From Gaiellaceae bacterium (lineage in GTDB: Bacteria > Actinomycetota > Thermoleophilia > Gaiellales > Gaiellaceae): a DNA stretch of 42,311 nt. Every line of letters starts with the position of its first letter. Position 1 is the first letter of the stretch. The notes beneath the pieces were generated by a model. It saw only the letters and a list, made by a program, of their open reading frames with translations. It was not told where the DNA came from and did not search any database. Made by a program: the position numbers and the translations under genes. Below are positions 1,862-35,062 of this stretch, in pieces. The stretch covers positions 1 to 42,311 of the forward strand of contig DATIBA010000194.1 in NCBI GenBank assembly GCA_035457765.1. The letters are read 5' to 3'.

Positions 1862-3940
<2,079 letters not shown>

Positions 3941-12286: not shown

Positions 12287-12314
12287 CCTCAGCGGCGTCG
12301 GGGCTGGCTGCGGG

Positions 12315-13259
12315 TCACGTCACGTCCTGGCCGAGGGCGCCGACGTCGAAGTCGGCGGCCGGCGTCGCGTAATCGGTCTTGAACCACCTCTGCGACAGCG
12401 TCTTCAGCGTCCCGTCCTCGTGCAGGCCCCGGATGGCCGCGTCGACCTTCTCGACGAACGCGGCCGCCGCGAGACCCGAGCTCTGGTCGACGAAGCCGGA
12501 CAGGTACTCGGTGAACGCGACGGCGTCGAGGGCCCGCAGTTCCGACCCCTCGTCGATGGCAGCCTGACCGACCTGGTCGCCGGCGAGGTACGCGTCGATC
12601 GTCCCCTTCTCGAGCGCTTCGAGACCCGGGACCTCGACCTCGAAGACGACGATGCTCGGACTCGTCACGTCGACCACGACGTCGGTTCCGGGAATCACCA
12701 GCTCGCCCTTGAGGTACGCCTCTTGCGAGCAGGTCGCGCATACTCCGATCTTCCTGCCGTCGAGGTCGCTCGGCTGCCGGAACGGGGAATCCTTCCGGAC
12801 GAAGTAGCGGTTCGCGCTCGTGACGTACGGTTGCGTCATGTAGAGCCGCTCCATCCGGTCGGTGGTGATCGCGCCCGATCCGTACGCGATGTCCCACCGG
12901 TCGCCCCAGTTCCCCGCGGTCACGTCCGACCACTGCGGCGCGACGAAGCAGGGCTCGACGCCGAGGTTCTCGGCGACGAGCTTCGTCACCTCGACGTCGT
13001 AGCCCGTGACCTCCGCGCCGGTGAGCTGGTCGCTCGCGCACTTCGTGTCCGCCGGCCGGGTCGCGCCCTCGACCACGATCGATTGCGGGGGGTAGTCGGG
13101 CTCGTAGAAGCCGACGAGCGTCCCGCGCGCCTGGATCTGGGCGAGCTTGTCGGTCGCGGGATCCCCGCCTGCGTCGCCCGCCGATCCGCCGCACGCGGCC
13201 AGTCCAAGTCCGAGGACCGCCGCGAGTGGTGCGAGGAGAGGCGATCGAGCTCGCCGCAT
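12315..13259 (-). CDS. Lipoprotein, solute-binding protein family 3 (polar amino-acid type), paralog 1
   Basis: I chose the start at ATG 13259 because AGGAGG lies about 11 nt upstream (inside the end of the preceding gene) and gives a lipobox signal [26 protein letters not shown]_bac_3-like body. Collinear with its upstream neighbour and about two-thirds identical to it by eye. Ends 28 nt before the kinase start. Confidence 0.85.
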
Positions 13260-18446: not shown

Positions 18447-22073
<3,627 letters not shown>

Positions 22074-22102
22074 ATCCGTGGCGCTCTCTACCATGGCGCG
22101 CT

Positions 22103-22741
22103 GTGAAGAGGTTCGCCGCCGCCCTTCTCGTCCTCGCTCTCGTCGTCTCGGGCGTGAGCCTGGGGGCGCGAGGCGACCCGAAGAAGCAGATCACGCCGGC
22201 TGATCAGGCGCGAGCGAGGGCGATGCTGCTGCGCAAGGCCGACTTCAGCCTGGCATTCAGAGCCGCGCCTGCCTCGACCGGCTCCGACTTCTACTGTGCT
22301 GCGCTCGACGAGTCCGACCTGACGCTCACCGGCGAGGCCGAGTCCCCGAGCTTCGCGGGCGGCGTCGAGTTCGTGGCCTCGACGTCCTACGTGTACGCCT
22401 CACGGGCCAATGCGAACGCGTCGTGGCGGCGGGGTACGAGCGCGGCGGGTCAGAAGTGTCTGCGCCGAGGGCTGCAGAACGAGATCCAGGGGACGAGCGT
22501 CAGGCTCGTCTCGTTCCGGAAGCTCCCGTTCCCAACGTTCGCCCAGCGTTCGGTCCTCTATCGAGTCGTCGCCGAGCAGCAGGGAGGGGTTCGCGTCTAC
22601 CTCGATCTCGTCGCACTGCAGCACTCGCGAGCGCAGGTGGCGATCGTCTACGGGTCGGGGCTCTCTCCTCCGCCGGCCGCGGAAGAGCGCAGGCTCGCGA
22701 GGGTGACCGCGGCACGGATGGCGAGGGCGATGGGCGGCTGA
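22103..22741 (+). CDS. Secreted hypothetical protein
   Basis: Only the 3' part of the 21173..22741 frame looks real. GTG 22103 gives the signal-like N-terminus VKRFAAALLVLALVVSGVSLGA, then a 190-aa non-repetitive domain with two Cys. I recognise no family. Confidence 0.55.
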   Translation: MKRFAAALLVLALVVSGVSLGARGDPKKQITPADQARARAMLLRKADFSLAFRAAPASTGSDFYCAALDESDLTLTGEAESPSFAGGVEFVASTSYVYASRANANASWRRGTSAAGQKCLRRGLQNEIQGTSVRLVSFRKLPFPTFAQRSVLYRVVAEQQGGVRVYLDLVALQHSRAQVAIVYGSGLSPPPAAEERRLARVTAARMARAMGG

Positions 22742-22802
22742 GACTGCGTTGGGTCAGACTTCGGGCTGACCTCCAACTCGTGCCGCAGGGGGCAGGCGGC
22801 AG

Positions 22803-24359
22803 GTGCCGGGCGGCGAACCTTTCGCCCATGCTCGCTCGGGACGCGGCCGAAAGGGCCGTAGAGAGAATCGAGGAGTGGTGGTAGCGTCACCACCGGTCGT
22901 GGAGAGCTCAAGCCGTCTCGGCCTTCTTCGCCGCTCACCGTCGTTCGCATACCTCTTCCTCGCGACCGCGGGGTCGAGCATCGGCACGTATCTCGCTGCC
23001 GTCGCGCTCACGGTCGACGTCTACGATCGCACCGAGGAAACCGGCCGTGCGGGCGTCTGGGTGGCCGCCTTGCTCATCGCCGACTTCCTCCCGATCGTGC
23101 TGATCGGGCTGCTCCTCGGGCCGCTCGTCGATCGCCTCTCCCGCCGCTGGCTTATGATCGTGTCCGATCTCGTCCGCTTCGGCGTGTTCGCGGCGCTTCC
23201 GTTCGTGGACAGCGCGGAAGCAGTCATCGGCCTGGCGGCGATCTCGGGGATCGCGACGGGCTTCTTCGTACCGGCCGGGGTGGCGGGTCTTCCGAACCTC
23301 GTTCCGGACGACGAGCTCACGAATGCGAACTCCCTCATCGTGACCATCGAGACCCTCGCCGCGATGATCGGCCCCGTCCTCGGCGGGGTCATGCTCGCGC
23401 TCTGGGGGACATCCGTTCCGTATGCGGTGAACGCGATCACGTTCCTCGTGTCGGCGGCCCTCATCGCCCGCATCCCCCGGTACAAGCTCCAGTCGGACGA
23501 GTCCCTGTCTCGCGGGCACTGGCGAGACGTCGCCGACGGGCTCCGGCTCGTCGTCACCGCGCGCCCGCTGCGGACGGTGCTCGTCGTCTGGAACGTCGTC
23601 ATCCTCGGGGCGGCGGCGGTGAACGTCGCCGAGGTCGTCTTCGCGAAGGAGACGCTCGACGCGGGAAACCTCGGTTTCGGTGCTCTCGTCGCCGCGAGCG
23701 GCGTCGGTCTCCTCCTCGGAAGCTTCCTCGCGCCGAACGCGCTCCGGACGGCCGGGCTGCGGCGCGCCTACGTCAGCTCGATCGTCCTCATGGGAGTCGG
23801 CTGGGGCGCCGCGGCGCTGAGCCCTTCGATCGAGCTCGCGGTCCTGTTCGTGATCGGAGGCGCGGCAGGCAACGGAGCGGCCGTCGTGTGCAACCGGCTC
23901 CTCGTGCAGCGCGGAGCTCCCGACCAGTACCGGGGGAGAGCGCTCGTGACGATCATGAGCTCGAACTACGCGGTCCTCGGGGTCGGTATGGCCGCCGCCG
24001 GTGTGCTCACGGACGTGTACGGCGCTCGCAAGGTATGGATCGCCGCCGGGTGCATCTACCTCACGGGCGCATTCGTCGCCCTCGTGATGACGCGGTGGCT
24101 GCCCGTTTCGCAGGCGGAGGAGTGGGAGGCGGTCGGGGTGAGCTCCGAGTCGGCCGTGGCTGCCCTCGGATACGGTTACACGAACGCCCTGGACTCGGGG
24201 CCCGAGCCCGAACCCTCCCTGCTGTCCGAGCCAGAGCCGGCGCCGTTGCCGGCCGCGAACGGGAGTCGGTCGAGCGGCCTCGAGCGAATTGCGACGCTGC
24301 TCGAGGAGATCGAGGCGCGCCGGATGCGAGAAGCGCTGCGCAAGTCCGGAATGCGCTGA
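22803..24359 (+). CDS. MFS transporter (DHA3/EntS-like, MFS_3-type)
   Basis: About 12 hydrophobic segments, typical MFS loop (GPLVDRLSRRW), and a hydrophilic C-terminal tail. The start is uncertain: GTG 22803 is the longest, and GTG 22875/22878 are plausible. Confidence 0.85.
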   Translation: MPGGEPFAHARSGRGRKGRRENRGVVVASPPVVESSSRLGLLRRSPSFAYLFLATAGSSIGTYLAAVALTVDVYDRTEETGRAGVWVAALLIADFLPIVLIGLLLGPLVDRLSRRWLMIVSDLVRFGVFAALPFVDSAEAVIGLAAISGIATGFFVPAGVAGLPNLVPDDELTNANSLIVTIETLAAMIGPVLGGVMLALWGTSVPYAVNAITFLVSAALIARIPRYKLQSDESLSRGHWRDVADGLRLVVTARPLRTVLVVWNVVILGAAAVNVAEVVFAKETLDAGNLGFGALVAASGVGLLLGSFLAPNALRTAGLRRAYVSSIVLMGVGWGAAALSPSIELAVLFVIGGAAGNGAAVVCNRLLVQRGAPDQYRGRALVTIMSSNYAVLGVGMAAAGVLTDVYGARKVWIAAGCIYLTGAFVALVMTRWLPVSQAEEWEAVGVSSESAVAALGYGYTNALDSGPEPEPSLLSEPEPAPLPAANGSRSSGLERIATLLEEIEARRMREALRKSGMR

Positions 24360-24391
24360 CTCCACTCCCGCACGCCGCATAGAGTCCGGCC

Positions 24392-25378
24392 GTGGCCCGC
24401 AAGGAGTGGACGCTGGCTGAGCTCGTCGAAGGCGTGCGCGCTTCCGACCGCCGGGCGCTCGCCCGCTCGATCTCGCTCGTGGAGGACGGGGACCCGCTGG
24501 CCTTTGAGCTCGTCCGGGAGCTCTATCCGGACACGGGAGGGGCAGCCGTCATCGGCGTCACCGGACCGCCGGGAGTCGGCAAGTCGAGCCTCATCGCGGC
24601 GCTCGTCTCGCACGTGCGTGAGGCGGGTACGACGGTCGGTGTCGTCTCGGTCGATCCCTCGAGCCCGTTCTCCCATGGGGCGCTGCTCGGAGACCGGATT
24701 CGGCTCTCCGACCACTTCCTCGATCCCGGGGTCTACATTCGCTCGATGGGGACGCGAGGACACCTCGGCGGGCTCGCGGAGGCGACGCTTCAGGCGGTTC
24801 TCCTGCTCGATGCGTCGGGGAAGGACGTCGTCTTCGTCGAGACGGTCGGTGCGGGACAGAGCGAGGTCGAGGTCACCGGGATCGTCGACACCGTGCTTCT
24901 CGTCCTCATGCCGGGCTCCGGCGATTCCGTCCAGGCGCTCAAGGCCGGGATCATGGAGATTCCCGACGTGATCGCGATCAACAAGATGGATCACGCTGCC
25001 GCGAGGACGATGCTCAACGAGGTGCGCTCGATCGTCGGGCTCGCGGAGCCCGACCGTCGTCCCGCGATCCTGTTGACGGAAGCGCTGCGCGGAGAGAACG
25101 TGCCCGAGCTCTGGGTCGCGCTCGAAGAGCGCCGCGAGGCGCTCTCGAGCGACGGACGCCTCGAGGCGCGTCGCCGCCGCAACCTCGCCGCCGAGGTGTT
25201 CGCGGTCGCGTCGAACAGGGCGAAGAGCCATTTGCAGGCTGCGGTCGCGGGGGACCCGGAGCTCCGCCGCCTTCTCGATGCCGTCGAGCAGCGCCGGCTC
25301 GATCCCCTGAGCGCGGTTCGGGAGATCATGGAGGACGTGTTCCACGTGGGCTCGGATCCCGCGGGTCCGACCCCATGA
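24392..25378 (+). CDS. meaB: Methylmalonyl-CoA mutase-associated G-protein chaperone (MeaB/ArgK family GTPase)
   Basis: P-loop GVTGPPGVGKSSLI, switch VETVGAGQSEV, NKxD as AINKMD. The length (328 aa) and C-terminal dimerisation helix are typical of the family. Confidence 0.9.
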   Translation: MARKEWTLAELVEGVRASDRRALARSISLVEDGDPLAFELVRELYPDTGGAAVIGVTGPPGVGKSSLIAALVSHVREAGTTVGVVSVDPSSPFSHGALLGDRIRLSDHFLDPGVYIRSMGTRGHLGGLAEATLQAVLLLDASGKDVVFVETVGAGQSEVEVTGIVDTVLLVLMPGSGDSVQALKAGIMEIPDVIAINKMDHAAARTMLNEVRSIVGLAEPDRRPAILLTEALRGENVPELWVALEERREALSSDGRLEARRRRNLAAEVFAVASNRAKSHLQAAVAGDPELRRLLDAVEQRRLDPLSAVREIMEDVFHVGSDPAGPTP

Positions 25379-26544
25379 CGCCCACGCCGACGATCGCCGA
25401 CATCGAGGCAGCGCGCGAGCGTCTCGCGGGTGTCGCACGCGAGACTCCGGTCTATCCGACCGAGACGTTCTCGCGGCTCGCCGGTCGGCAGGTCTTCCTG
25501 AAGGCCGAGAATCTCCAACGGACCGGTTCGTTCAAGATCCGCGGCGCGTACAACACGATCGCGACGCTCGGCGACAGGGAACGCCGAGCCGGTGTTGTTG
25601 CCGCGAGCGCTGGCAACCACGGGCAGGCGGTCGCCTGGGCGGCGCGGGAGGCCGGCATACCCGCGACGATCTTCATGCCGCAGGACGCGCCCATGGCGAA
25701 GGTCGAGGCGACGCGCTCCTACGGCGGGACGACCGAGCTGACGGGCGAGGGCTTCGAGGAGGCGGTCGCCGCCGCTGCCGCGTACGTCGAGAGCACGGGA
25801 GCGACGCTCGTGCACGCCTTCGAGGACGAGCGCGTGATCGCCGGTCAGGGGACGATCGGGCTCGAGCTCGCCGAGCAGGCACCCGACGCGGAGACGGTGC
25901 TGATCCCGATCGGCGGTGGCGGGCTCGCCGCCGGGATCGCGACTGCACTGAAGGAGCGACGTCCCACGGCACGCGTCGTCGGTGTCCTCTGTCAGCCGGG
26001 GTACACGATCGCGGACGGGATCGCGGTGAAGTACCGCGGCGAGCTGGCGTCCTCGATCCTCGAGCGCGTTCTCGACGACACCGTGTCCGTCTCGGACGAC
26101 GAGATCTCGGAGGCGCTCGTGCTCTGCGTCGAGCGGACGAAGTTTCTCGTGGAGGGTGCGGGCGCGGTGGGCCTCGCCGCGCTGCTCGCGGGCCGCGTGC
26201 CGGGAACCGGCTCGGTCGCCGTCGTCCTCTCCGGCGGGAACATCGACGCGACGACGTTGATCTCGGTCCTCCGGCACGGCCTCACGCGCGCAGGTCGCTT
26301 CCTCGCCGTCCGTCTGCTGATCCCCGACCGGCCGGGAGAGCTTCGGAACGTCCTCGACCTCGTCGCGCGCGCGCGTGGCAACGTCGTCTCCGTCGATCAC
26401 CACCGCGAAGGGCGGACGACGAGCGCGCTCCAGACCGAGATCGAGCTCGTCGTCTCGACGCGGGACGAGCACCACTGCCAGGAGCTTGTCACCGCACTGC
26501 GCGAGGCCGGGCACACGATCGAACGGGTCGGCCCACCGGCGTAG
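25375..26544 (+). CDS. ilvA: Threonine ammonia-lyase (threonine dehydratase), short form with one ACT-like regulatory domain
   Basis: PLP-lysine motif FLKAENLQRTGSFKIRGAYN, glycine loop SAGNHGQAVA, and a C-terminal ACT-like segment (LAVRLLIPDRPGEL...). The start ATG overlaps the meaB stop (ATGA at 25375-25378). Confidence 0.9.
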   Translation: MTPTPTIADIEAARERLAGVARETPVYPTETFSRLAGRQVFLKAENLQRTGSFKIRGAYNTIATLGDRERRAGVVAASAGNHGQAVAWAAREAGIPATIFMPQDAPMAKVEATRSYGGTTELTGEGFEEAVAAAAAYVESTGATLVHAFEDERVIAGQGTIGLELAEQAPDAETVLIPIGGGGLAAGIATALKERRPTARVVGVLCQPGYTIADGIAVKYRGELASSILERVLDDTVSVSDDEISEALVLCVERTKFLVEGAGAVGLAALLAGRVPGTGSVAVVLSGGNIDATTLISVLRHGLTRAGRFLAVRLLIPDRPGELRNVLDLVARARGNVVSVDHHREGRTTSALQTEIELVVSTRDEHHCQELVTALREAGHTIERVGPPA

Positions 26545-26554
26545 ACTCGCCGGG

Positions 26555-29500
26555 ATGCAGACCTGCACATCCTGCGGCTTCGAGAACGCCGAGAGCGCGA
26601 AGTTCTGTTCCGAGTGTGGAACCGCACTCACGACACCGACCGCGCGCCGGGAGGAACGAAAGGTCGTCACCGTCGTGTTCGCCGATCTGGTCGGCTCGAC
26701 GGCACGCGCCGAGCGGCTCGACCCCGAGGACGTCCGCGCAATCCTCGCTCCGTACCACGAGCGGCTGCGCGACGAGCTCGAGCGGCGCGGAGGGACGGTC
26801 GAGAAGTTCATCGGCGACGCGGTCGTCGGGGTCTTCGGAGCGCCGGTGGCGCACGAAGACGATCAGGAGCGGGCCGTGCGAGCAGCGCTTGCGATTCAGG
26901 AGGCGATCGCCGAGCTGAACGACGCCGACCCGCGGCTCGAGCTCGAGGTACGGATCGGCGTCCATACGGGCGAGGCGCTCGTGAACGTGGGCGCCCGCCC
27001 CGAGCTGGGCGAGGCGATGGTCGCGGGCGACGTGGTGAACACGGGATCCCGTTTGCAGGCGGCGGCGCCGCCGGGCGGCATACTCGTCGGTGAGCAGACG
27101 TTCTGGGCGACCGAGCGCGTGATCGAGTACCGCGAGGTGGAGCCGGTCACAGCGAAGGGGAAAGCCGAGCCGATCCCGGCCTGGCAGGCGATCCAGGCGA
27201 GATCGCGGTACGGCATCGACCTCGCACGTCCCGGAGGCGCGAAGCTCATCGGTCGCGAGCGCGAGCTCGACGTGCTCGCGGACGCTCTCGCCCGCGCCCG
27301 CGCCGACCGCACGCCGGAGCTCGTGACCCTCGTGGGCGTGCCGGGAATCGGCAAGTCGCGGCTCGTCTGGGAGCTGTTCGGGCTCATCGAGCAGATTCCG
27401 GACCTCATCTATTGGCGCCAAGGCCGCTGCCTCCCCTACGGCGACGGCATCACCTTCTGGGCGCTCGGTGAGATGGCGAAGGCCCACACCGGAGTTCTCG
27501 AGTCCGACTCGAGCGCTGAGGCGGAGGAGAAGCTGCACCGCACGACCGCCGATCTGCTGCCGGACGAGCGCGAGTCTCATTGGGTGGAGGGACACCTGAG
27601 GCCGCTCGTGGGGCTCGCCACGCAGGGTGAGGGGAGTGACGAGAACCGTTACGAGGCGTTCGCCGCCTGGCGTCGGTTTTTCGAGGCCATTGCCGAAGAG
27701 CGGCCGCTGATCCTCGTCTTCGAGGACATGCAGTGGGCGGACGACGGCTTGCTCGACTTCGTCGACAGTCTTTCCGAGCGCGTATCGGGCGTGCCGCTGC
27801 TCGTCCTCTGCTCCACCCGGCCGGAACTGCTCGAACGGCGTCCCGGCTGGGGTGGAGGAAAGCGGAATGCCGTCACCGTCTCACTCGAGCCGCTCTCAGA
27901 CGACGAGACGGCGCGTCTGATCGCGGCGCTCCTCGACCGTCCCGTGCTACCGGCGGAGACGCAAACCGCCCTCGTCCAGCGCGCCGGCGGGAATCCCCTA
28001 TACGCCGAGGAGTACGTGCGCATGCTCGGCGACCGGGGCGAAGGGGACCTCCCACTTCCGGAAACGGTGCAGGGCATCGTCGCGGCCCGGCTCGACCTCC
28101 TTGGAGACGCGGAAAAGGCCCTCCTCCAACACGCGGCCGTCCTCGGCAAAGTCTTCTGGACGGACGCGCTCGTCTCGCTCGCGATCCTCGAGCGTCGGGA
28201 GCTCGAGGATCGGCTCCACGCGCTCGAGCGGAAGGAATTCATCTCCCGCGAGCGGCGGTCGGCAGTTGCCGGCGAAGCGCAATACGCCTTCCGTCACGTA
28301 CTCGTACGCGATGTCGCCTACGGCCAGATGCCCCGAGCCGCGCGCGCGGACGGCCACCGGCACGCGGCCGAGTGGATCGAGTCGCTTCCTCCCGACCGCT
28401 CGGAGGACCGGTCAGAGATGCTTGCGCACCACTACCTGGCCGCGCTCGAGTACTCGAGGAGCGCCGGTCGGCAGCCGGGAGATCTCGTCGCCCGCGCGAG
28501 TGTGGCATTGCAGGAGGCAGGCGATCGAGCGATCGCACTCAACGCTTTCGCCGCCGCCGTCCGCTACTACTCATCTGCCTCCGAGCTCGGCGAGCTCGAC
28601 GCGAGGCGCCTCCTCGCCTTCGGCAGGGCGCTCGGGCTCAGCGAGTCTCGAGGCGACGACGTGCTCGCGTCCGCGGCGGAGGCCGCACTGGCGAACGAGG
28701 ACATGGAGACCGCCGCCGAGGCGGAGATGCTCAGAGGGGAGCTCCGAATTCTCCAGGGCGAGCGCGACGACGCGCTCGCCCACATCGATCGGGCGGCCGA
28801 GCTGGTGGCGGACGCGCCGCTCTCCGCGTCCAAGGCGTTCGTCACGAGCAACATCTCCCGTTTCCTGATGCTCGCGGGGCGAAACGAGGAGGCGATCCGG
28901 ATCGGTGGCGACGCCCTGGCAATGGCCGAGGAGCTCGGCCTGGACGAGCTGCGCGCGCATGCCCTCAACAACATCGGCGCCGCAAAGGCGGCCAAGGGCG
29001 ACCTCTCGGGGCTCGACGATCTGCGCCGGAGCATCGACATCGCTTCCGAGCTGAACTCGCCCGAGGCGCGGAGAGGTCTCAACAACCTCGCAACGAACCT
29101 CAGGACGCTCGGTGACCTCACTGCCGCCGAGCCGCTCTTTCACGAGGCGCTTTCGGTCGCTGAGCGGTTCGGCATCGTCACCGACGTCTTGTGGTGCCGA
29201 GTAGAACTCGCGTCGATTGCCGCTCAGACCGGCCGCTGGGACGAGGCGGCCGCGGCGGTCGACGCGGCCATCGCGGAGTTCGCACAGCGTGCTCCGCACT
29301 ACATGGAGGGCCCGTGTCGCTACGACCGCGCCCGGATCCGTCTGGGCCGTGGAGACATCGAAGGGGCCGTCGATGACGCTCTCACAAGCGTCGAGCTCGC
29401 GGAACGCGTCAGGGATCCACAGGTCCTCTACTGGGCACGCGCGGGCGCGGCGCGAATCTTCCACGCTGCGGGTCGGACGCCCGAGGCGGAGGTTCAGGTG

Positions 29501-29887
29501 AACAGGCTGCTGGCGGACGTCAACACTGAACAAGTGCAGCAGCCGGCTCACTTCTGGGTGCTCGACCTCGCCGTCGCCATGGCTGCCGCCGGGCGCGGTG
29601 TCGAGTTCGTCGAGCGGCTGCCGACGCTCGGACCGCCGACTCGGTGGGCCGAGGCCGCGGAGCTCTGGGCGCGCGACGCGTTCGAGCGCGCAGCTGACCT
29701 TCTGGAGGAGATCGGTGCCCGGCCCGACGAGGCGCTTGCGCGTCTCCGCGCTGCCGAAACGCTCGTGGCCGCCGGTCGCCGCACGGAGGCCGACGAGCAG
29801 CTCGGCCGCGCGCTGGGGTTCTTCCGCTCGGTCGGCGCGACTCGCTACATCCGTGAGGGCGAGAGGCTGCTCGCCGCATCCGCATGA
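26555..29887 (+). CDS. Zinc-ribbon / class III adenylate-guanylate cyclase / STAND (AAA_16) NTPase / TPR-repeat protein, paralog 1; no HTH
   Basis: 1110 aa from ATG 26555, 10 nt after ilvA. N-terminal CxxC-x10-CxxC (CTSCGFENAESAKFCSECG). Cyclase motifs VVFADLVGST (metal Asp ~44), EKFIGDAV (Asp ~88), GDVVNTGSRL (Asn/Arg). Walker A GVPGIGKSRL, Walker B LILVFEDMQWAD. About 550 aa of TPR-like repeats. Ends ...LGFFRSVGATRYIREGERLLAASA*. Confidence 0.9.
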   Translation: MQTCTSCGFENAESAKFCSECGTALTTPTARREERKVVTVVFADLVGSTARAERLDPEDVRAILAPYHERLRDELERRGGTVEKFIGDAVVGVFGAPVAHEDDQERAVRAALAIQEAIAELNDADPRLELEVRIGVHTGEALVNVGARPELGEAMVAGDVVNTGSRLQAAAPPGGILVGEQTFWATERVIEYREVEPVTAKGKAEPIPAWQAIQARSRYGIDLARPGGAKLIGRERELDVLADALARARADRTPELVTLVGVPGIGKSRLVWELFGLIEQIPDLIYWRQGRCLPYGDGITFWALGEMAKAHTGVLESDSSAEAEEKLHRTTADLLPDERESHWVEGHLRPLVGLATQGEGSDENRYEAFAAWRRFFEAIAEERPLILVFEDMQWADDGLLDFVDSLSERVSGVPLLVLCSTRPELLERRPGWGGGKRNAVTVSLEPLSDDETARLIAALLDRPVLPAETQTALVQRAGGNPLYAEEYVRMLGDRGEGDLPLPETVQGIVAARLDLLGDAEKALLQHAAVLGKVFWTDALVSLAILERRELEDRLHALERKEFISRERRSAVAGEAQYAFRHVLVRDVAYGQMPRAARADGHRHAAEWIESLPPDRSEDRSEMLAHHYLAALEYSRSAGRQPGDLVARASVALQEAGDRAIALNAFAAAVRYYSSASELGELDARRLLAFGRALGLSESRGDDVLASAAEAALANEDMETAAEAEMLRGELRILQGERDDALAHIDRAAELVADAPLSASKAFVTSNISRFLMLAGRNEEAIRIGGDALAMAEELGLDELRAHALNNIGAAKAAKGDLSGLDDLRRSIDIASELNSPEARRGLNNLATNLRTLGDLTAAEPLFHEALSVAERFGIVTDVLWCRVELASIAAQTGRWDEAAAAVDAAIAEFAQRAPHYMEGPCRYDRARIRLGRGDIEGAVDDALTSVELAERVRDPQVLYWARAGAARIFHAAGRTPEAEVQVNRLLADVNTEQVQQPAHFWVLDLAVAMAAAGRGVEFVERLPTLGPPTRWAEAAELWARDAFERAADLLEEIGARPDEALARLRAAETLVAAGRRTEADEQLGRALGFFRSVGATRYIREGERLLAASA

Positions 29888-32800
29888 CGCTCGTCTGCCC
29901 TTTCTGTGGGCGCGAGAACCCTGACGACGCCCGCTTTTGCGGTGGGTGCGCGACGCCCCTTACCGTCGAGCACACTGCCCGCCGCGAGGAGCGGAAAGTC
30001 GTCACCGTCGTCTTCGCCGACCTCGTCGGCTCCACCGCGCGTGCGGAGCGGCTCGATCCCGAGGACGTCCGCGCGATTCTCGCCCCCTACCACGAACGGC
30101 TTCGTCACGAGCTCGAGCGGCACGGAGGAACGGTCGAGAAGTTCATCGGAGACGCGGTCGTCGGCGCCTTCGGTGCGCCGGTTGCGCACGAGGACGATCC
30201 CGAGCGGGCCGTCAGGGCGGCGCTCACGATCCAGGACGCGATCGCGGAGCTCAACGATGCGGATCCGCGGCTCGAGCTGGAGGTGCGAGTGGGCGTGCAC
30301 TCGGGCGAAGCGCTCGTTTCGATCGGCGCACGGCCCGAGCTGGGCGAGGCGATGGTCGCCGGCGACGTGATGAACACGGCCGCTCGTCTCCAGTCGGCCG
30401 CGCCGCCCGGAGGAATCCTCGTCGGTGAGGCCACGTACCGAGCCACCGACCGCGCGATCGAGTACGCCGATCACGACCCCGTGACTGCCAAGGGAAAGTC
30501 GGGGCCGCTTCGCGCGTGGCTTGCTGTGGCGCGACGTTCGAGGTACGGCATCGACCTCGGCGAAGGGCTTCGCGCGCCGCTCGTGGGACGCACCGAGGAG
30601 CTCGATGTGCTCTCGAGCGCACTGTCGCGCGTGCAAGCGCGGCGCGAAGCGCAGCTCGTGACCCTGGTTGGCGTGCCGGGCATCGGGAAGTCGAGACTCG
30701 TCCAGGAGCTCTTTCAGGTCGTCGAGCAGACGCCGGAGCTGATCAACTGGCGTCAGGGACGCTCGCTTCCGTACGGCGAGGGAGTCGCGCTCTGGGCGCT
30801 CGGCGAGATTGTGAAGGGGCAAGCGGGGATCCTCGAGTCGGATCGCTCGGACGAAGCCTCGGTCAAGCTCTCCGCGGCGGTGCACGACCTCGTCTCCGAT
30901 GACGTCGAGGCTCGCTGGATCGAGCGGCATCTCCGGCCTCTTGCCGGAATTCGTGACAGCCCCTCGGTGGGGGAAGCGAGCCTCGAGGAGGCGTTCACGG
31001 CCTGGCGTCGCTTTCTCGAGTCGATGGCCGAGTCGCGACCGACGGTCCTCGTCTTCGAGGACCTCCACTGGGCAGACGATGCCCTCCTCGACTTCGTCGA
31101 CTCCTTGGCCGACCGGGTGGTCGACGTACCGCTTCTCGTCGTGTGCTCGGCGAGACCCGAGCTGCTCGAGCGTCGGCCGGGATGGGGAGGAGGGAAGCGC
31201 AACGCGACCACGCTCTCCATTGCACCGCTCTCCGACGAGGAGACGGCGCGCCTCCTGGGCGAGCTCCTCGACCGCGCCGTGCTCCCAGCGGAGCAGCAGC
31301 TCGAGCTCCTCCAGCGTGCCGGTGGCGTGCCGCTCTTCGCCGAGGAGTACGTCCGCATGCAACACGACGGGGGCACCGGGGACGTGCCGGAGACGCTGCA
31401 CGGCATCGTCGCCGCGCGTATCGACGGCCTCCCGCGGACGGAGAAGGCGCTCCTTCAGGCCGCCGCGGTCCTCGGCAAGGTCTTCTGGACCGACGCGCTC
31501 GCCGCACTCGCGGACACCGGGCGAGAGGGCCCTGACGAGATGCTCTTCGCGCTCGAGCGAAAGGAGTTCGTGAGGAGGGAACGACGCTCCACCGTCGCAG
31601 GAGCGCGACAATTGGCATTCGTCCACGCGCTCGTGCGCGATGCCGCATATGGGCAGGTGCCGCGGGCCGAGCGGGCTCGGCTGCACCGACGGGCCGCCGA
31701 GTGGATCGAGACGCTCGCTCCGGACCGCTCCGAAGACCGCGCGGAGATGCTCGCGCACCACTACGTCGCCGCGCTCGAATACGCGCGCAGTGCCGGCATC
31801 GACGTGGAGGAACTGGGCGTCCACGCGGCCAAGGCGCTCAGGGAAGCGGGCGACCGTGCGTACGCGCTCAACGCCTACGTCGCCGCAGCGCGCTACTACG
31901 GATCGGCGCGCGAGCTGGGACCGCTCGATCCGAAAAGTCTGCTCGCATACGGCAGGGCGCTCTCGAGCAGCGAGAGAGGCGGCGACGACGTATTCGCGGC
32001 GGCGGCCAAAGCGGCGTTGGCAGTCGACGACGTCGAGACGGCGGCCGAGGCCGAGATGGAGCGCGGCATCCTGCGCTTCCTCCAGGGGGACCGCGACGCA
32101 GCGGGGTCCCACTTCGACGAGGCTTCCTCGCTCGTTGCAGCCGTCGGGCCGTCATGGGCCAAGGCGTTCGTGACGAGCAGCATCTCCCGCTTCCTCATGC
32201 TGGCCGGCCGTAGCGACGAGGCCATCGAGGTCGGCTCGGAAGCGCTCGCGATGGCGGAGGAGCTGGGGCTCGAGGGCATCCGAGCTCACGCGCTGAACAA
32301 CATCGGTACGGCCAGGGCGAACGCCGGAGATCGCTCGGGGCTCGACGACCTCCGGACGAGCATCGACATCTCCCTCGAGCACAACCTGCCCGAGGCGCGA
32401 CGAGGGCTGAACAATCTTGCCTCTCTCGTGTTCTCGTTCGGAGACATACGTCGGGCCGAAGCGCTCAGCCGCGAAAGCGCGGAGGTCTCGGAGCGGTTCG
32501 GGATCATCGCGGCGGCCTACTGGGATCGAGCGGAGCTTGCGTTCTGCGCCTACTACGCAGGGCGCTGGGACGACGCGATGCGAGAGCTCAACTCCCTGAT
32601 CGAACAGTCCGAGGAGGAGACGCGACACTACATGGAGGCGTCGTGCCGCGATTTCCGCTCGAGGATGAGCCTCGCGCGCGGTGACGTGGGAGGTGCCGTC
32701 GATGACGTGACGGTGATGCTCGAGCTCGCCGCCGGCATCAAGGATCCTCAGGTGCTCCACCCCGCTCGGGCCGCCGCCGCGAACGTCTTCCTCGATGCGG

Positions 32801-33213
32801 GGCGCCGCGAGGACGCGGCGTCACAAGTGGATGTACTCCTTGCCGAACTCCAAGCCGGGGACGTGACGGACGTCAATTTCTGTGCCCCCCAACTGGCCGC
32901 TGCGATGGACGCGCTCGGTCGAGGGCAGGAGTTCCTCGAACGGGCGCCAGGCCTCGGAACGGCGACACCATGGCTCGAGGCTGCGTCGTGCTGGGTACGA
33001 GGAGAGTTCGGACGCGCGGCAGACCTGTTCGGCGAGATCGGCTCGCTCCCGGACGAGGCTCTCGCACGCCTTCGCGCGGCCGAGAAGCTCGTTGCCGGCG
33101 GCCGGCGCCCCGAGGCGGACGAGGAGCTCGCGCGGGCACTCGCCTTCTGGCGATCCGTGGGTGCGACGCGCTACGTCCACGAGGGCGAGGCGCTCCTCGC
33201 GGAGGCGAGCTGA
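29884..33213 (+). CDS. Zinc-ribbon / class III adenylate-guanylate cyclase / STAND (AAA_16) NTPase / TPR-repeat protein, paralog 2; no HTH
   Basis: 1109 aa, collinear with paralog 1 over its full length. The start ATG overlaps the paralog-1 stop (ATGA at 29884-29887). Same motifs: CPFCGRENPDDARFCGGC, VVFADLVGST, EKFIGDAV, GDVMNTAARL, GVPGIGKSRL, VLVFEDLHWAD. Ends ...LAFWRSVGATRYVHEGEALLAEAS*. Confidence 0.9.
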   Translation: MTLVCPFCGRENPDDARFCGGCATPLTVEHTARREERKVVTVVFADLVGSTARAERLDPEDVRAILAPYHERLRHELERHGGTVEKFIGDAVVGAFGAPVAHEDDPERAVRAALTIQDAIAELNDADPRLELEVRVGVHSGEALVSIGARPELGEAMVAGDVMNTAARLQSAAPPGGILVGEATYRATDRAIEYADHDPVTAKGKSGPLRAWLAVARRSRYGIDLGEGLRAPLVGRTEELDVLSSALSRVQARREAQLVTLVGVPGIGKSRLVQELFQVVEQTPELINWRQGRSLPYGEGVALWALGEIVKGQAGILESDRSDEASVKLSAAVHDLVSDDVEARWIERHLRPLAGIRDSPSVGEASLEEAFTAWRRFLESMAESRPTVLVFEDLHWADDALLDFVDSLADRVVDVPLLVVCSARPELLERRPGWGGGKRNATTLSIAPLSDEETARLLGELLDRAVLPAEQQLELLQRAGGVPLFAEEYVRMQHDGGTGDVPETLHGIVAARIDGLPRTEKALLQAAAVLGKVFWTDALAALADTGREGPDEMLFALERKEFVRRERRSTVAGARQLAFVHALVRDAAYGQVPRAERARLHRRAAEWIETLAPDRSEDRAEMLAHHYVAALEYARSAGIDVEELGVHAAKALREAGDRAYALNAYVAAARYYGSARELGPLDPKSLLAYGRALSSSERGGDDVFAAAAKAALAVDDVETAAEAEMERGILRFLQGDRDAAGSHFDEASSLVAAVGPSWAKAFVTSSISRFLMLAGRSDEAIEVGSEALAMAEELGLEGIRAHALNNIGTARANAGDRSGLDDLRTSIDISLEHNLPEARRGLNNLASLVFSFGDIRRAEALSRESAEVSERFGIIAAAYWDRAELAFCAYYAGRWDDAMRELNSLIEQSEEETRHYMEASCRDFRSRMSLARGDVGGAVDDVTVMLELAAGIKDPQVLHPARAAAANVFLDAGRREDAASQVDVLLAELQAGDVTDVNFCAPQLAAAMDALGRGQEFLERAPGLGTATPWLEAASCWVRGEFGRAADLFGEIGSLPDEALARLRAAEKLVAGGRRPEADEELARALAFWRSVGATRYVHEGEALLAEAS

Positions 33214-33220
33214 GGTCGAC

Positions 33221-33256
33221 CTCCTGAGGTAGGAGGGGGGCCTGCGCCCTCAGGAG
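33221..33256. terminator. Hairpin between convergent genes (terminator-like, no U-tract)
   Basis: 9-bp stem ctcctgagg (33221-33229) / cctcaggag (33248-33256) with an 18-nt loop. It sits in the 36-nt gap between the stop of cyclase paralog 2 and the stop of the MBL-rhodanese gene, and its 3' arm overlaps the latter stop. Confidence 0.35.
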
Positions 33257-34584
33257 CCGCAGCGGCGGAACTCGACGGTGGGCTTCCCGGCGGCCGCCCA
33301 GCTGTCGATCCCGCCGTTCACGACGGGATGCGCGTCGAAACCATGCGCCGCGAGGATGCTCGCCGCGATCGCTGCGCGAGGCCCAGTCTCGCAGATGGTC
33401 ACGATCGGGCGGTCTCGCGGAAGGTCGGCCTCGCCGAGCGCGAGCAGGCGGTACGGGATGTTGCGACTCCCCGCGATGTAGCCCGTGTCCCGCTCGTCCT
33501 TCTCCCGCACGTCGACGAGCTCCGCACCGTGCTCGAGAAGGGCGTCGAGCTCGTCGACCGAGACGAGCCCGAGCTTCTCAGGCCCTGCTCCGAGCACGTA
33601 TCCGGAGATCTCGAAGACCCCCACGGAGCGAAGTGCACGGATCGCCTCTGTCGCCTCCCCGGCATCCGACGCCGAGACGACGACCGGGCGTGGCTCCAGG
33701 ACGAACGCCGCTTTCGTCGAAAACCGCGTGCCCGTGACGGGTACGTTGAGTGCGCCGGCGAAGTGGCCCGCCGCGAACGCCTCGATCCGCCGGACGTCGA
33801 GCACCTGTGCGCCTTCGGGCGGAGCGGGCAGCTCCGGGGGCTCGGGCCGAGCGCCGACGAACGGGCCGCGATTCAGCTCCACGATCGCCTGCATGTTCGG
33901 CGGACGGGGCGCCGAGACCGCGGCCGACTCGGCGACGAACAGCGCCATGTCGTCGAACGCGAGCGCGTGGTTGAAGCGCCGCTCGAAGCCGATCGTCGTC
34001 GACGCCTTCGAGCTCATCGCCTTGCCGCAGAGCGACCCCGCGACATGGCCGGGGTAGACCTCGACGCCGTCTCCGAGCTCGACGAGGCGGCGCAGTGAGT
34101 GGAAGAGCCCCTCGGCGCCTTCGCGAGCCTCCACCGCGAGATCCGGGCGCGCCGCATCTCCGACGAAGAGGGAGTCGCCCGTGAGGACGACCCAGGGGTC
34201 GGGTCCGCGCGACCGGTCGGTCACGGCGAGGCAACAGTGCTCGGGCCGGTGTCCGGGCGTGTGGATGCAGCGCAGCACGACCTGGCCGACTTCGATCTCG
34301 TCTCCGTCCTCCATCGCGTCGTTCGGGTACGCGACGCCGGCCGCGGGGTGGATGCTGACCGGAACGTCGTGCTCGAGTGCGAGTCGCCCGTGGCCCGCGA
34401 CGTGGTCGGCGTGCGTGTGCGTCTCGATCGCGCGGACGATCTGCACGTCCTGGCGCGCCGCCGCTTCGAGGTACTGCTCGATGGCGAAGGCCGGATCGAC
34501 GACGACCGCGCTTCGAGCCTCCGCGTCGCCGACGAGGTACGACGCGCATCCGAGCGCGTCGTCGACGAACTGCGTGAAGATCAT
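33250..34584 (-). CDS. MBL-fold hydrolase fused to rhodanese domains (persulfide dioxygenase-sulfurtransferase type)
   Basis: 444 aa. Intact metal motif ETHTHADHVAGH and further His/Asp ligands (HTPGH, LFVGD). The C-terminal half has rhodanese-like repeats, the last with an active-site-loop Cys (VTICETGPRAAIA). Confidence 0.85.
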   Translation of the reverse strand: MIFTQFVDDALGCASYLVGDAEARSAVVVDPAFAIEQYLEAAARQDVQIVRAIETHTHADHVAGHGRLALEHDVPVSIHPAAGVAYPNDAMEDGDEIEVGQVVLRCIHTPGHRPEHCCLAVTDRSRGPDPWVVLTGDSLFVGDAARPDLAVEAREGAEGLFHSLRRLVELGDGVEVYPGHVAGSLCGKAMSSKASTTIGFERRFNHALAFDDMALFVAESAAVSAPRPPNMQAIVELNRGPFVGARPEPPELPAPPEGAQVLDVRRIEAFAAGHFAGALNVPVTGTRFSTKAAFVLEPRPVVVSASDAGEATEAIRALRSVGVFEISGYVLGAGPEKLGLVSVDELDALLEHGAELVDVREKDERDTGYIAGSRNIPYRLLALGEADLPRDRPIVTICETGPRAAIAASILAAHGFDAHPVVNGGIDSWAAAGKPTVEFRRCGS

Positions 34585-34658
34585 GGATGGGGCCGACCGT
34601 AGCAGCGGCTCCCGCTATCTCTCTTGAAGTGCCCGGCAGAGACCGGGAGAAGCCCTGG

Positions 34659-34901
34659 TCACGCAACCTCGGGATGCCTGATTCGAACTCGGTGCTCGCG
34701 ATAGCGGATCGCCTCGTACGCGACGACGAGGGCGCACACAGTGCTGACCAGGGCGAGAGCCGCCAGTGACGGAATCGCGACCGCAACGGGAACGAGGGCC
34801 AGCAGGACGATCGCCGCGCCGACCGTCACCGAAAGACGTACCGAGTCGCCCGGAAGAGGAACGCGATGTGCCCGAGCAGGTACAGGGCAGCACCGCCGCA
34901 C
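34659..34901 (-). CDS. Possible small membrane protein
   Basis: 80-aa ORF with a long hydrophobic core (VTVGAAIVLLALVPVAVAIPSLAALALVSTVCALVVAY) and G/C-biased third codon positions in the stretch I checked. I recognise no family and found no clear RBS. Confidence 0.35.
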   Translation of the reverse strand: MRRCCPVPARAHRVPLPGDSVRLSVTVGAAIVLLALVPVAVAIPSLAALALVSTVCALVVAYEAIRYREHRVRIRHPEVA

Positions 34902-35062
34902 AACGCCACTGCAGGCACGGTGTCGAGCGCCTCTCCTGCGCTGCTGATGTCGTCGGGATTGGCATCCTCGTCGAGGTCGCTCGACGACGCGGCATGGGTT
35001 TCATCGCCTCGCGCGACGGAGCTGGCGGCCGAGAAGGCGGCGAAGAAGGCTCAGGAAACCGA

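What the first reader, a model, noticed from the sequence alone, without database searches (positions are those of the whole stretch)
26555..33213. Tandem, translationally coupled zinc-ribbon / cyclase / STAND / TPR paralogs that lack the usual HTH
Seen directly: two collinear 1110/1109-aa genes overlap by ATGA (29884-29887). Each carries an N-terminal CxxC-x10-CxxC zinc ribbon and a class III cyclase domain with both metal Asp residues and the Asn/Arg transition-state pair. Each also has a P-loop NTPase (GVPGIGKSRL; VFED..WAD) and ~550 aa of TPR-like repeats, and each ends at ...SVGATRY..EGE.LLA... with no helix-turn-helix. Established: cyclase-ATPase-TPR proteins are known in actinobacteria (for example the M. 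tuberculosis Rv0386/Rv1358/Rv2488c type), but those end in a LuxR-type HTH. Inference: without the HTH, the only evident output is the second messenger itself. That makes these NLR-like sensors whose effector is a nucleotide cyclase. The tandem pair could be two receptors with different specificities or a hetero-oligomer. They follow ilvA by only 10 nt, so they may be co-transcribed with meaB-ilvA.
Basis: partly seen in the sequence, partly recalled or inferred. Interest (0 to 1): 0.7.

Follow-up and report, generated by a model that had tools for sequence, protein, structure and literature searches.

The report
Tandem STAND-regulated adenylate cyclase paralogs

Summary
Gene A (26555-29887, 1110 aa) and gene B (29884-33213, 1109 aa) overlap by ATGA and are 65% identical. 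Each has a C-x2-C-x10-C-x2-C zinc ribbon, a class III cyclase domain, an AAA_16/STAND NTPase and about 515 aa of MalT-like TPR. Neither ends in an HTH.

The claim that this is unusual is not supported. The HTH-less architecture is the norm for a huge family:
- 21,603 representative clusters match at E<=1e-30.
- 0 of 120 close homologues and 0 of 83 C-termini from genomes carry a GerE/HTH domain.
- About one locus in four has another paralog within 5 kb.

Related HTH-less cyclase-STAND proteins are already described, namely full-length mammalian sAC and Leptospira LA_4008.

The most likely mechanism (inferred) is this: ligand binds the TPR sensor, the STAND module exchanges nucleotide and oligomerises, the cyclase domains dimerise, and cAMP is made. 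The two genes most likely encode independent receptors with different specificities.

I found no defence context. The mildly interesting extra is that the slot after meaB-ilvA is a birth-and-death array. At least four paralog lineages occupy it in different combinations, and the sensor half of A is recombinant and far more diverged than its flanks.

Verdict: new member of a known kind, low to moderate interest.

The parts
26555..29887 (+). Gene A: zinc ribbon - class III cyclase - STAND NTPase - TPR sensor protein, 1110 aa
   Evidence: ORF and translation; Pfam domains; AF2 model pLDDT 84; best PDB fold match is 6MFV, a STAND-TPR protein
26564..26617 (+). A: C-x2-C-x10-C-x2-C zinc ribbon (C4, C7, C18, C21)
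   Evidence: Motif positions; Zn_Ribbon_1 E 4e-6; C18/C21 invariant and C4/C7 >=90% conserved in 64 relatives
26654..27169 (+). A: class III cyclase homology domain (aa 34-205). Metal residues D44 and D88, substrate Lys K84, M155 at the second specificity position, transition-state N162/R166
   Evidence: Guanylate_cyc E 1e-18; alignment to Cya2 2W01 and CyaB 3R5G; fold TMt 0.87 to CyaB; all six residues invariant in the family
27242..27805 (+). A: P-loop NTPase (AAA_16, aa 230-417). Walker A GVPGIGKS 261-268, Walker B LILVFED 385-391
   Evidence: AAA_16 E 3e-22; motifs; K267 and D391 invariant
27815..28324 (+). A: helical domain plus winged-helix domain of the STAND core (aa 421-590). Includes sensor Arg R422, GGNPL 478-482 and the conserved His in FRHVLVR (H581)
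   Evidence: Motifs; invariant R422, P481 and H581; helix/strand pattern H518-530, E533-535, H536-559, E563-566, E576-579 in the model
28334..29884 (+). A: arm plus TPR/MalT-like repeat sensor (aa 594-1110). This is the recombinant, fast-diverging half
   Evidence: TPR_12, TPR_10 and TPR_19 hits; profile match to MalT domain III 1HZ4 at E 7e-7; continuous helical hairpins at pLDDT >90; four-fold-site divergence 0.59 against a background of 0.25-0.35
29884..29887 (+). ATGA stop/start overlap between A and B (a translational-coupling arrangement)
   Evidence: Sequence; the same 4-nt overlap occurs in L001, L086, L087 and L088
29884..33213 (+). Gene B: paralog of A with the same architecture, 1109 aa. 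Zinc ribbon at nt 29896-29949; cyclase aa 36-207; AAA_16 aa 232-420; TPR to the C-terminus
   Evidence: Residues D46, K86, D90, M157, N164, R168; Walker A 263-270; Walker B 388-393
24392..26544 (+). meaB (24392-25378) and ilvA (25375-26544). These upstream genes are probably in the same transcription unit; a 10-nt spacer (26545-26554) precedes A
   Evidence: MeaB matches TIGR00750 and IlvA matches TIGR01127, both above cut-off; gene order conserved in L001-L006 and L086-L088

Best explanation
A and B are two independent cytoplasmic receptor cyclases of the 'cyclase-STAND-TPR' type.

**Resting state (inferred).** The MalT-like TPR sensor and the arm hold the ADP-bound NBD-HD-WHD core closed. 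The N-terminal class III cyclase domains stay monomeric and inactive.

**Activation (inferred).** Each paralog binds its own ligand, a metabolite or protein that is unknown. Binding releases autoinhibition, ADP is exchanged for ATP, and the STAND core multimerises. Multimerisation brings cyclase domains together into the head-to-tail dimers that class III catalysis requires.

**Output (inferred).** The product is a cyclic nucleotide, most likely cAMP because the adenine-specifying Lys is present. It is read by the organism's cNMP-binding proteins. Two of these are encoded about 19 kb upstream in this window.

**Origin of the pair.** It comes from birth-and-death turnover of paralogs at a fixed chromosomal slot downstream of meaB-ilvA. 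The sensor half diversifies by recombination.

**What is shown and what is inferred.** Shown: the domain anatomy, the motif integrity, the family size and the locus dynamics. Inferred: the activation mechanism, the nucleotide specificity and the ligands.
For: **Anatomy and motifs**
- Anatomy and intact motifs in both genes.
- All catalytic cyclase residues and all NTPase motifs are invariant across 64 relatives.
- The cyclase domain aligns to and superposes on active bacterial cyclases: CyaB TMt 0.87, Cya2 and CyaC.
- K84 aligns with the specificity position that is Glu in the guanylyl cyclase Cya2 and Lys in its adenylyl-converted form 6FHT.

**STAND classification**
- The best whole-chain fold match is PH0952 (6MFV), a STAND with a TPR sensor. 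Apaf-1 also matches.
- The C-terminal repeats match MalT domain III in a profile search.
- The STAND-TPR activation model comes from PMC6468293 and PMC4381067.

**Output and independence of the two genes**
- No HTH or other output domain is present.
- In relatives the locus holds one copy (L002, L003) or different pairings, so neither paralog needs the other.
- Sensor divergence exceeds cyclase divergence: A vs B is 83% identical in the cyclase and 55-63% in the TPR.
- cNMP-binding proteins are encoded at 5167-5595 and 5645-7477.
Against: - No member with this exact architecture has been characterised biochemically, as far as my literature searches found.
- Full-length mammalian sAC has a cyclase plus a predicted STAND module. 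Added nucleotides had no isoform-specific effect on its activity in vitro (PMC12802110). STAND control of a cyclase is therefore unproven even there.
- The second specificity residue is Met rather than Asp/Thr/Ser, so ATP specificity is not assured.
- The role of the conserved zinc ribbon is unexplained.
Confidence: 0.55

Rival explanations
1. Anti-phage or conflict system. A and B are Avs/NLR-like pattern-recognition receptors whose TPR sensors bind phage proteins. Their cyclase makes an alarm nucleotide, as in Pycsar, that activates an effector encoded elsewhere.
For: - The STAND plus repeat-sensor architecture is shared with Avs and NLRs.
- The cyclase domain hits PADLOC PycC models at E 2e-15.
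- The locus is hypervariable within conserved flanks, with at least four paralog clades in changing combinations.
- The sensor half of A is recombinant and 2-3x more diverged at silent sites than the flanking genes.
Against: - The PycC hits are generic domain-level homology and score below Pfam Guanylate_cyc.
- No PADLOC model matches the NTPase or sensor, apart from one weak PDC-S27 hit (E 6e-5, no matched stretch passing threshold) on B at its Walker A region. None matches the ilvA or MBL-rhodanese neighbours, and meaB gives only weak P-loop-level hits (mad8, PifA, MkoA).
- No cNMP-activated effector is adjacent. The neighbours are metH, an MFS gene, meaB, ilvA, an MBL-rhodanese gene and an acyl-CoA dehydrogenase gene, in conserved synteny.
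- The family is expanded to many paralogs per lineage without a conserved partner gene.
- dN/dS in the sensor is 0.2-0.37, which indicates purifying selection.
Confidence: 0.1
2. Obligate hetero-oligomer. A and B work only together, as a sensor/helper pair or a cyclase heterodimer. This would explain the conserved translational coupling.
For: - The ATGA overlap is conserved in five contigs.
- Class III cyclases act as dimers, and heterodimers are known in mammalian C1/C2 enzymes (established knowledge).
- A evolves faster than B, which resembles a sensor/helper asymmetry.
Against: - Both copies keep all six catalytic residues and intact Walker motifs, so there is no complementary degeneration.
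- L002 and L003 carry a single copy at the same site.
- Partners differ between genomes: A-B, A-D, C-A, C-B'.
- In C-A and C-B' arrays the genes are separated by 9 nt rather than overlapping.
Confidence: 0.1
3. The output is not cAMP. The invariant Lys/Met specificity pair could direct synthesis of another cyclic nucleotide (cGMP, cCMP or cUMP), or give mixed specificity as in Rv0386.
For: - M155/M157 replaces the canonical Asp and is invariant in 64 relatives.
- Rv0386 has a non-canonical pair and a side activity with GTP (Castro et al. 2005, cited in PMC3789758; own knowledge).
- The best sequence match in PDB is the guanylyl cyclase Cya2.
Against: - Lys at the first position (K84) is the adenine-selecting residue. 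The Cya2-derived adenylate cyclase 6FHT carries Lys at the same aligned position.
- Active adenylyl cyclases such as CyaB and CyaC have Thr rather than Asp at the second position (own knowledge).
Confidence: 0.15

Closest known systems
M. tuberculosis Rv0386 / Rv1358 / Rv2488c (class III cyclase - ATPase - TPR - LuxR HTH)
   Same: N-terminal class III cyclase followed by an AAA_16/MalT-type P-loop NTPase and, in Rv0386, TPR repeats (10.1101/2024.03.06.583649). Both are actinobacterial.
   Different: Those proteins end in a LuxR/GerE HTH. A and B do not, and they carry an N-terminal zinc ribbon. The specificity pair is Lys/Met here and Gln/Asn in Rv0386 (own knowledge).
Leptospira interrogans LA_4008 and Myxococcales orthologues (2 x cyclase homology domain - AAA ATPase - TPR)
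   Same: HTH-less cyclase-ATPase-TPR architecture, already described in 2013 (PMC3789758).
   Different: Two tandem cyclase domains instead of one, no zinc ribbon, and a proposed role in host cAMP elevation rather than as a cytoplasmic sensor.
Full-length mammalian soluble adenylyl cyclase (sACfl, ADCY10)
   Same: Cyclase catalytic region followed by a predicted STAND module with a P-loop and no DNA-binding output (PMC12802110; it cites Leipe 2004 and Danot 2009).
   Different: C1-C2 pseudo-heterodimer in one chain. Regulated by bicarbonate and calcium through the catalytic core. Eukaryotic. The role of the STAND part is still unknown.
MalT / PH0952 / AfsR-type STAND regulators with TPR sensors
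   Same: NBD-HD-WHD core, arm and TPR/SUPR sensor. The best fold match is 6MFV, with a profile match to MalT domain III. The activation logic is presumed to be the same (PMC6468293).
   Different: Their effector is a DNA-binding domain; here it is a cyclase. Some relatives of A/B do combine both, for example the SARP-zinc ribbon-cyclase-AAA_16 protein P0135.
TOMM-system kinase/cyclase fusion proteins (TIGR03903)
   Same: The cyclase-AAA_16-repeat portion aligns over about 600 residues (E 2e-69). Kinase-fused relatives exist in the same family (P0241).
   Different: The score of 235 is far below the 706 cut-off. A and B have no N-terminal Ser/Thr kinase, and the window holds no TOMM biosynthetic context.
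Pycsar PycC cyclases
   Same: Homologous class III-like cyclase fold (PADLOC PycC E 2e-15). The output would be a cyclic mononucleotide.
   Different: There is no adjacent cNMP-activated effector and no defence-island context. PycC proteins do not carry a STAND-TPR module.

Membership tests
Class III nucleotidyl cyclase (PF00211) | Domain match above the curated threshold, and the cyclase fold | tested here: met
   67.9 and 70.2 bits against a cut-off of 21.9; TMt 0.87 to CyaB 3R5G
Class III nucleotidyl cyclase (PF00211) | Two metal-binding Asp residues and the transition-state Asn/Arg pair | tested here: met
   D44, D88, N162, R166 in A and D46, D90, N164, R168 in B. All are invariant in 64 relatives and aligned to Cya2 and CyaB
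Class III nucleotidyl cyclase (PF00211) | Canonical adenine-specifying Lys...Asp pair | tested here: inconclusive
   Lys is present (K84/K86). The second position is an invariant Met (M155/M157), judged by spacing of -7 from the Asn and by alignment to Cya2. Specificity cannot be read from sequence
Class III nucleotidyl cyclase (PF00211) | Catalytic activity as a dimer | not testable with these tools
   Needs enzyme assays and oligomer analysis
STAND NTPase, MalT-like / AAA_16 with TPR sensor | Walker A, Walker B, sensor Arg, GxP motif and the conserved His of the winged-helix domain | tested here: met
   GVPGIGKS, LVFED, S[TA]RPE, GG[NV]PL and F[RV]H.LVR in both proteins. K267, D391, R422, P481 and H581 are invariant
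STAND NTPase, MalT-like / AAA_16 with TPR sensor | NBD-HD-WHD-arm-repeat sensor fold | tested here: met
   AF2 model; the top PDB match is the STAND-TPR protein PH0952, 6MFV, at E 1e-12, and Apaf-1 3SFZ also matches; MalT domain III at E 7e-7
STAND NTPase, MalT-like / AAA_16 with TPR sensor | Inducer-dependent ADP/ATP switch and multimerisation | not testable with these tools
   Biochemical property; inferred only
Rv0386-type cyclase-ATPase-LuxR regulators (LAL-like) | C-terminal LuxR/GerE helix-turn-helix | tested here: not met
   No GerE or HTH model at E<=0.1. 0 of 83 C-termini of A, B and 81 relatives from genomes. 0 of 120 precomputed domain lists. The model is a TPR solenoid to the last helix
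TOMM kinase/cyclase fusion (TIGR03903) | Whole-protein score above the cut-off, and an N-terminal protein kinase | tested here: not met
   234.7 and 232.9 bits against a cut-off of 705.75. Only profile positions 278-893 match, and there is no kinase
Pycsar anti-phage system | PycC cyclase with an adjacent cNMP-binding effector gene | tested here: not met
   Only domain-level PycC hits. The neighbours are ilvA and an MBL-rhodanese gene. The nearest cNMP-binding genes are about 19 kb away
Avs / bNACHT-type antiviral STAND | Match of the NTPase/sensor to defence-system models, and a defence-island neighbourhood | tested here: not met
   No PADLOC model matches the NTPase or sensor, apart from one weak PDC-S27 hit (E 6e-5, no matched stretch passing threshold) on B at aa 233-278, its Walker A region. 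The neighbourhood is housekeeping and syntenic in 9 contigs

The most novel reading that the evidence does not exclude
The slot after meaB-ilvA could be a chromosomal 'receptor cassette' locus where STAND-gated cyclases behave like NLR genes. Paralogs are gained, lost and swapped, and sensor halves are exchanged by recombination. The selective pressure could be a changing biotic ligand such as phage or competitor proteins, and cAMP (or another cNMP) would be the alarm signal. That would make these proteins a STAND-sensor counterpart of Pycsar, with the effector encoded in trans, for example a cNMP-gated MFS transporter or other cNMP-binding protein.
Probability: 0.1. Interest if true: 0.75.

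Novelty: new member of a known kind. Interest (0 to 1): 0.3.

Why it matters
If the inferred mechanism is right, these proteins are a simple and very abundant bacterial model for how a STAND/NLR-type switch can gate an enzyme that needs dimerisation. That question is still open for full-length mammalian soluble adenylyl cyclase.

The family makes up a large part of the signalling repertoire of uncultured soil Actinomycetota, Chloroflexota and Dormibacterota, yet no ligand is known for any member.

The locus-level turnover and sensor recombination seen here suggest which part of the protein sets specificity. They also offer natural chimeras for testing that idea.

The finding as written does not reveal a new kind of system.

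Tried and rejected
- **Cryptic HTH.** I searched with Pfam at E<=0.1 on both proteins, Pfam on 83 C-termini, and a full-length AF2 model. None was found. The only winged helix is the internal WHD that every STAND core has.
- **Sequence search of the STAND-TPR part against PDB.** No hit at E<=0.01 with the single sequence. Only the family profile and the fold search gave MalT and PH0952.
- **Defence assignment.** PADLOC gave only PycC domain-level hits, so I rejected it as evidence.
- **Conserved partner gene.** I clustered 478 neighbouring ORFs from 79 loci. No family recurs in more than 7 loci. An MFS_3+cNMP-binding transporter is adjacent in only three Dormibacterota loci, which I kept as a weak lead only.
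- **Promoter and terminator scan of 22000-35000.** There were 0 promoter-like sites, and terminator-like sites were at the shuffle expectation. This is uninformative for a 70% GC actinobacterium.
- **Hairpin between B and the convergent gene.** The fold gives -26.3 kcal/mol but z = -0.83 against shuffles, so it is not evidence for a terminator.
- **Gene conversion between A and B.** Rejected, because silent-site divergence between A and B is high everywhere (p4 0.46-0.63).
- **Positive selection on the sensor.** dN/dS is 0.2-0.37, so no gross signal. The excess divergence is also seen at silent sites, which points to recombination rather than selection alone.
- **Literature.** The main text of the 2004 actinobacterial cyclase survey (PMC2447327) is not held. 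Searches for a characterised protein of this exact architecture found none.


Full report
**1. Observation**

The region holds two collinear ORFs on the + strand. Gene A runs 26555-29887 (1110 aa) and gene B runs 29884-33213 (1109 aa). B's ATG overlaps A's TGA as ATGA at 29884-29887.

A longer in-frame GTG ORF from 26375 overlaps the end of the upstream gene. All relatives start at the M-x-x-C-P-x-C-G zinc ribbon, so ATG 26555 is the real start.

The two proteins are 65% identical over their full length with only four gaps. Pfam finds the same domains in both: Zn_Ribbon_1, Guanylate_cyc, AAA_16 and TPR_12/10/19. No HTH family appears at E<=0.1.

- C-x2-C-x10-C-x2-C zinc ribbon
- FADLVG and KFIGD, carrying the two metal Asp residues
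- the Asn/Arg transition-state pair
- GVPGIGKS (Walker A)
- LVFED..WAD (Walker B)
- SVGATRY...LLA at the C-terminus

The upstream genes are meaB and ilvA, both above NCBIfam cut-offs.

**2. Cyclase domain**

The best sequence matches in PDB are Synechocystis Cya2 (2W01), its adenylate-converted derivative (6FHT), P. aeruginosa CyaB (3R5G) and Spirulina CyaC. The predicted fold superposes on CyaB with TM 0.87.

D44, K84, D88, R133, N162 and R166 are invariant across 64 relatives. K84 sits at the position that is Glu in Cya2 and Lys in 6FHT, so an adenine-selecting Lys is present.

The second specificity position, seven residues before the Asn, is Met (M155 in A, M157 in B). It is not Asp/Thr/Ser, and it is also invariant. 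cAMP is therefore the likely product but not an assured one.

**3. NTPase and sensor**

Beyond Walker A and B, both proteins carry the STAND hallmarks: the sensor Arg (S[TA]RPE), the GxP motif (GG[NV]PL) and the conserved His of the winged-helix domain (F[RV]H.LVR). All are invariant in the family.

An AlphaFold2 model of A built on 64 homologues has mean pLDDT 84, and above 90 through most of the repeat region. It shows:
- a Rossmann-like NBD
- a helical domain
- a winged helix at about residues 518-590
- uninterrupted helical hairpins from about residue 594 to the last helix, 1096-1109

The best whole-chain PDB match is PH0952 (6MFV), the reference structure of a STAND with a TPR sensor. Apaf-1 also matches. 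A family profile matches MalT domain III (1HZ4, E 7e-7). There is no terminal HTH. The only winged helix is the internal one that all STAND cores possess.

**4. How unusual is the architecture?**

It is not unusual.

- **Word-indexed search.** All 120 best hits have the same length and domain list, with no GerE. Sources name them 'class 3 adenylate cyclase/tetratricopeptide (TPR) repeat protein' or 'AAA family ATPase [Gaiellaceae bacterium]'.
- **Exhaustive HMMER search of 1.84 billion cluster representatives.** It gave 21,603 clusters at E<=1e-30 and 82,657 at E<=1e-10. The 150 best almost all cover residues 1-1110 in proteins of about 1,050-1,150 aa.
- **Species-representative genomes.** They come from Thermoleophilia/Gaiellaceae, other Actinomycetota, Chloroflexota, Dormibacterota and Rokubacteria MAGs.
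- **C-termini.** Of the 83 C-termini scanned (the two window genes plus 81 relatives from the genome loci), none has an HTH and all have TPR models. 25 match TPR_MalT.

So within this family the HTH-less form is the rule. Some relatives add an N-terminal SARP DNA-binding module (P0135) or a Ser/Thr kinase (P0241) in front of the same zinc ribbon-cyclase-AAA_16-TPR core.

In the literature:
- HTH-less cyclase-ATPase-TPR proteins were drawn for Leptospira LA_4008 and Myxococcales in 2013 (PMC3789758).
- Full-length mammalian sAC is described as a cyclase followed by a predicted STAND P-loop module (PMC12802110).
- The LuxR-ending Rv0386 group is a mycobacterial variant.

I found no biochemical study of a protein with exactly this architecture.

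**5. The tandem pair and its locus**

The gene order metH - small ORF - MFS - meaB - ilvA - [cyclase array] - convergent MBL-rhodanese - acyl-CoA dehydrogenase is conserved in nine related contigs. The array itself is not conserved.

| Contigs | Array content | Junction between array genes |
|---|---|---|
| window, L001, L086; L087 (second gene is a 51-aa fragment at the contig end, clade not checked) | A-B | ATGA overlap |
| L088 | A followed by a fourth paralog clade, D (about 72% to P0118/P0048, 48-71% to B) | 4-nt overlap |
| L004 | C-A | 9-nt gap |
| L006 | C-B' | 9-nt gap |
| L002, L003 | B' alone | single gene |

In the wider family, about 18 of 79 loci carry another paralog within 5 kb, and L049 has three in a row. 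Tandem copies are therefore common. This pair is one state of a birth-and-death array. Neither gene requires the other, and that argues against an obligate hetero-oligomer.

**6. Asymmetric, mosaic divergence (new here)**

I compared the window with L001 (GCA_035720185.1).

| Region | NG dS | Four-fold-site divergence | Protein identity |
|---|---|---|---|
| Flanking genes | 0.31-0.54 | 0.25-0.35 | 88-94% |
| Gene B | 0.12-0.50 in sliding windows; whole gene 0.27 | 0.15-0.29 | 92.5% |
| Gene A, residues 1-500 | - | 0.34-0.39 | - |
| Gene A, residues 501-1110 | - | 0.585-0.59 | - |
| Paralogs A vs B, residues 501-1110 (for reference) | - | 0.62-0.63 | - |

Gene A as a whole is only 76% identical to its L001 counterpart. 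Its C-terminal half is as diverged as the paralogs are from each other.

Other genome pairs show different mosaic patterns. For L086 vs L087, four-fold-site divergence is 0.17 in ilvA, 0.13 in A residues 251-500 and 0.42-0.48 in A residues 501-1110.

Partition trees are discordant. P0005 groups with the window's A for residues 1-480 but with the L001 type for residues 520-1110.

dN/dS stays below 0.4. The simplest reading is recombinational exchange of sensor halves between diverged alleles, with a junction near the WHD/arm. This pattern is typical of receptors under diversifying pressure. It does not identify the pressure.

**7. Context and possible downstream readers**

PADLOC gives only PycC (cyclase-domain) hits. 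It gives nothing for the ilvA and MBL-rhodanese neighbours and only weak P-loop-level hits for meaB. The neighbourhood is core metabolism.

Clustering of 478 neighbouring ORFs from 79 family loci found no conserved partner.

One weak lead came out of it. An MFS_3 transporter with a C-terminal cNMP-binding domain lies directly next to family genes in three Dormibacterota loci (L056, L080, L085). In two of these (L056, L085) it is sandwiched between two family genes.

The window itself encodes an MFS+cNMP-binding protein (5645-7477) and a stand-alone cNMP-binding protein (5167-5595) about 19 kb upstream. It also has a plain MFS_3 gene two genes upstream of A. cNMP signalling is clearly in use in this organism, but no target can be assigned.

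**8. Mechanism**

My best-supported explanation has confidence about 0.55, and its steps are inferred from the MalT/PH0952/Apaf-1 paradigm (PMC6468293, PMC4381067):
1. The TPR sensor and arm hold the ADP-bound core closed.
2. Ligand binding releases this autoinhibition.
3. ATP binding drives multimerisation.
4. The N-terminal cyclase domains, which need to dimerise to form active sites, are brought together and make cAMP.

A and B would be parallel receptors with different ligands, expressed from one operon with meaB-ilvA. The conserved zinc ribbon remains unexplained.

The rivals are a defence sensor (0.1), an obligate A/B complex (0.1) and a product other than cAMP (0.15). They are listed with their tests.

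**9. Verdict**

The architecture is a very common, already annotated and previously noted type, and its tandem arrangement is also common.

It is a new member of a known, biochemically uncharacterised kind. The locus turnover and the mosaic sensor are the only features that go beyond routine annotation.

Interest is 0.3.

Noticed in passing
window 28050-29884 (gene A, aa ~500-1110), compared with L001, L086, L087, L088: The sensor half of gene A is a recombinant mosaic. Four-fold-site divergence from its positional orthologue is about 0.59, against 0.25-0.35 in flanking housekeeping genes and 0.15-0.29 in gene B. Partition trees for the N-terminal and C-terminal halves are discordant.
   Followed up: partly
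window 26555-33213 and loci L001-L006, L086-L088: The slot between ilvA and the convergent MBL-rhodanese gene holds different combinations of at least four paralog clades in related genomes: A-B, A-D, C-A, C-B', or B' alone. Flanking synteny is conserved throughout.
   Followed up: partly
window 5167-5595 (-) and 5645-7477 (+): This is a divergent gene pair. One gene encodes a stand-alone cNMP-binding protein of 142 aa. The other encodes an MFS transporter with a C-terminal cNMP-binding domain. Both are candidate readers of cyclic nucleotides in this organism.
   Followed up: no
L056:3330-4850, L085:3042-4925, L080:~8500-10291: In three Dormibacterota MAG loci an MFS_3 + cNMP_binding transporter gene lies directly next to cyclase-STAND-TPR genes on the same strand. 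In L056 and L085 it sits between two of them. This is a weak hint at a cAMP-gated transporter target.
   Followed up: partly
P0135 and P0241 (relatives): Some family members carry an extra N-terminal module in front of the cyclase-AAA_16 core. P0135 has a SARP (Trans_reg_C + BTAD) module before a zinc ribbon-cyclase-AAA_16 core, which makes it AfsR-like with an inserted cyclase; no TPR was reported for it at E<=1e-4. P0241 has a Ser/Thr kinase before a cyclase-AAA_16-TPR core; no zinc ribbon was reported for it.
   Followed up: no
window 7709-12319 (-): A very large hybrid sensor kinase of 1536 aa: dCache-HAMP-PAS x3-GAF x2-HisKA-HATPase-REC.
   Followed up: no
window 27017-27019 and 30352-30354 (M155 of A, M157 of B): An invariant Met occupies the second substrate-specificity position of the cyclase domain, where adenylyl cyclases normally have Asp, Thr or Ser. 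The consequence for nucleotide choice is unknown.
   Followed up: partly
window 33214-33249: The 36-nt gap between the stop of B and the stop of the convergent MBL-rhodanese gene contains an inverted repeat (CTCCTGAGG...CCTCAGGAG). It folds at -26.3 kcal/mol, but no better than shuffled sequence (z = -0.83).
   Followed up: yes
L004:4332-4601: In one related genome a small DUF7218/Rho_N-like gene of 89 aa is inserted between ilvA and the first cyclase gene. It breaks the otherwise conserved 9-10-nt junction.
   Followed up: no
window 1862-2383 (-): An ORF with a zf-HC2 anti-sigma-factor-type zinc finger. The partner sigma factor was not examined.
   Followed up: no
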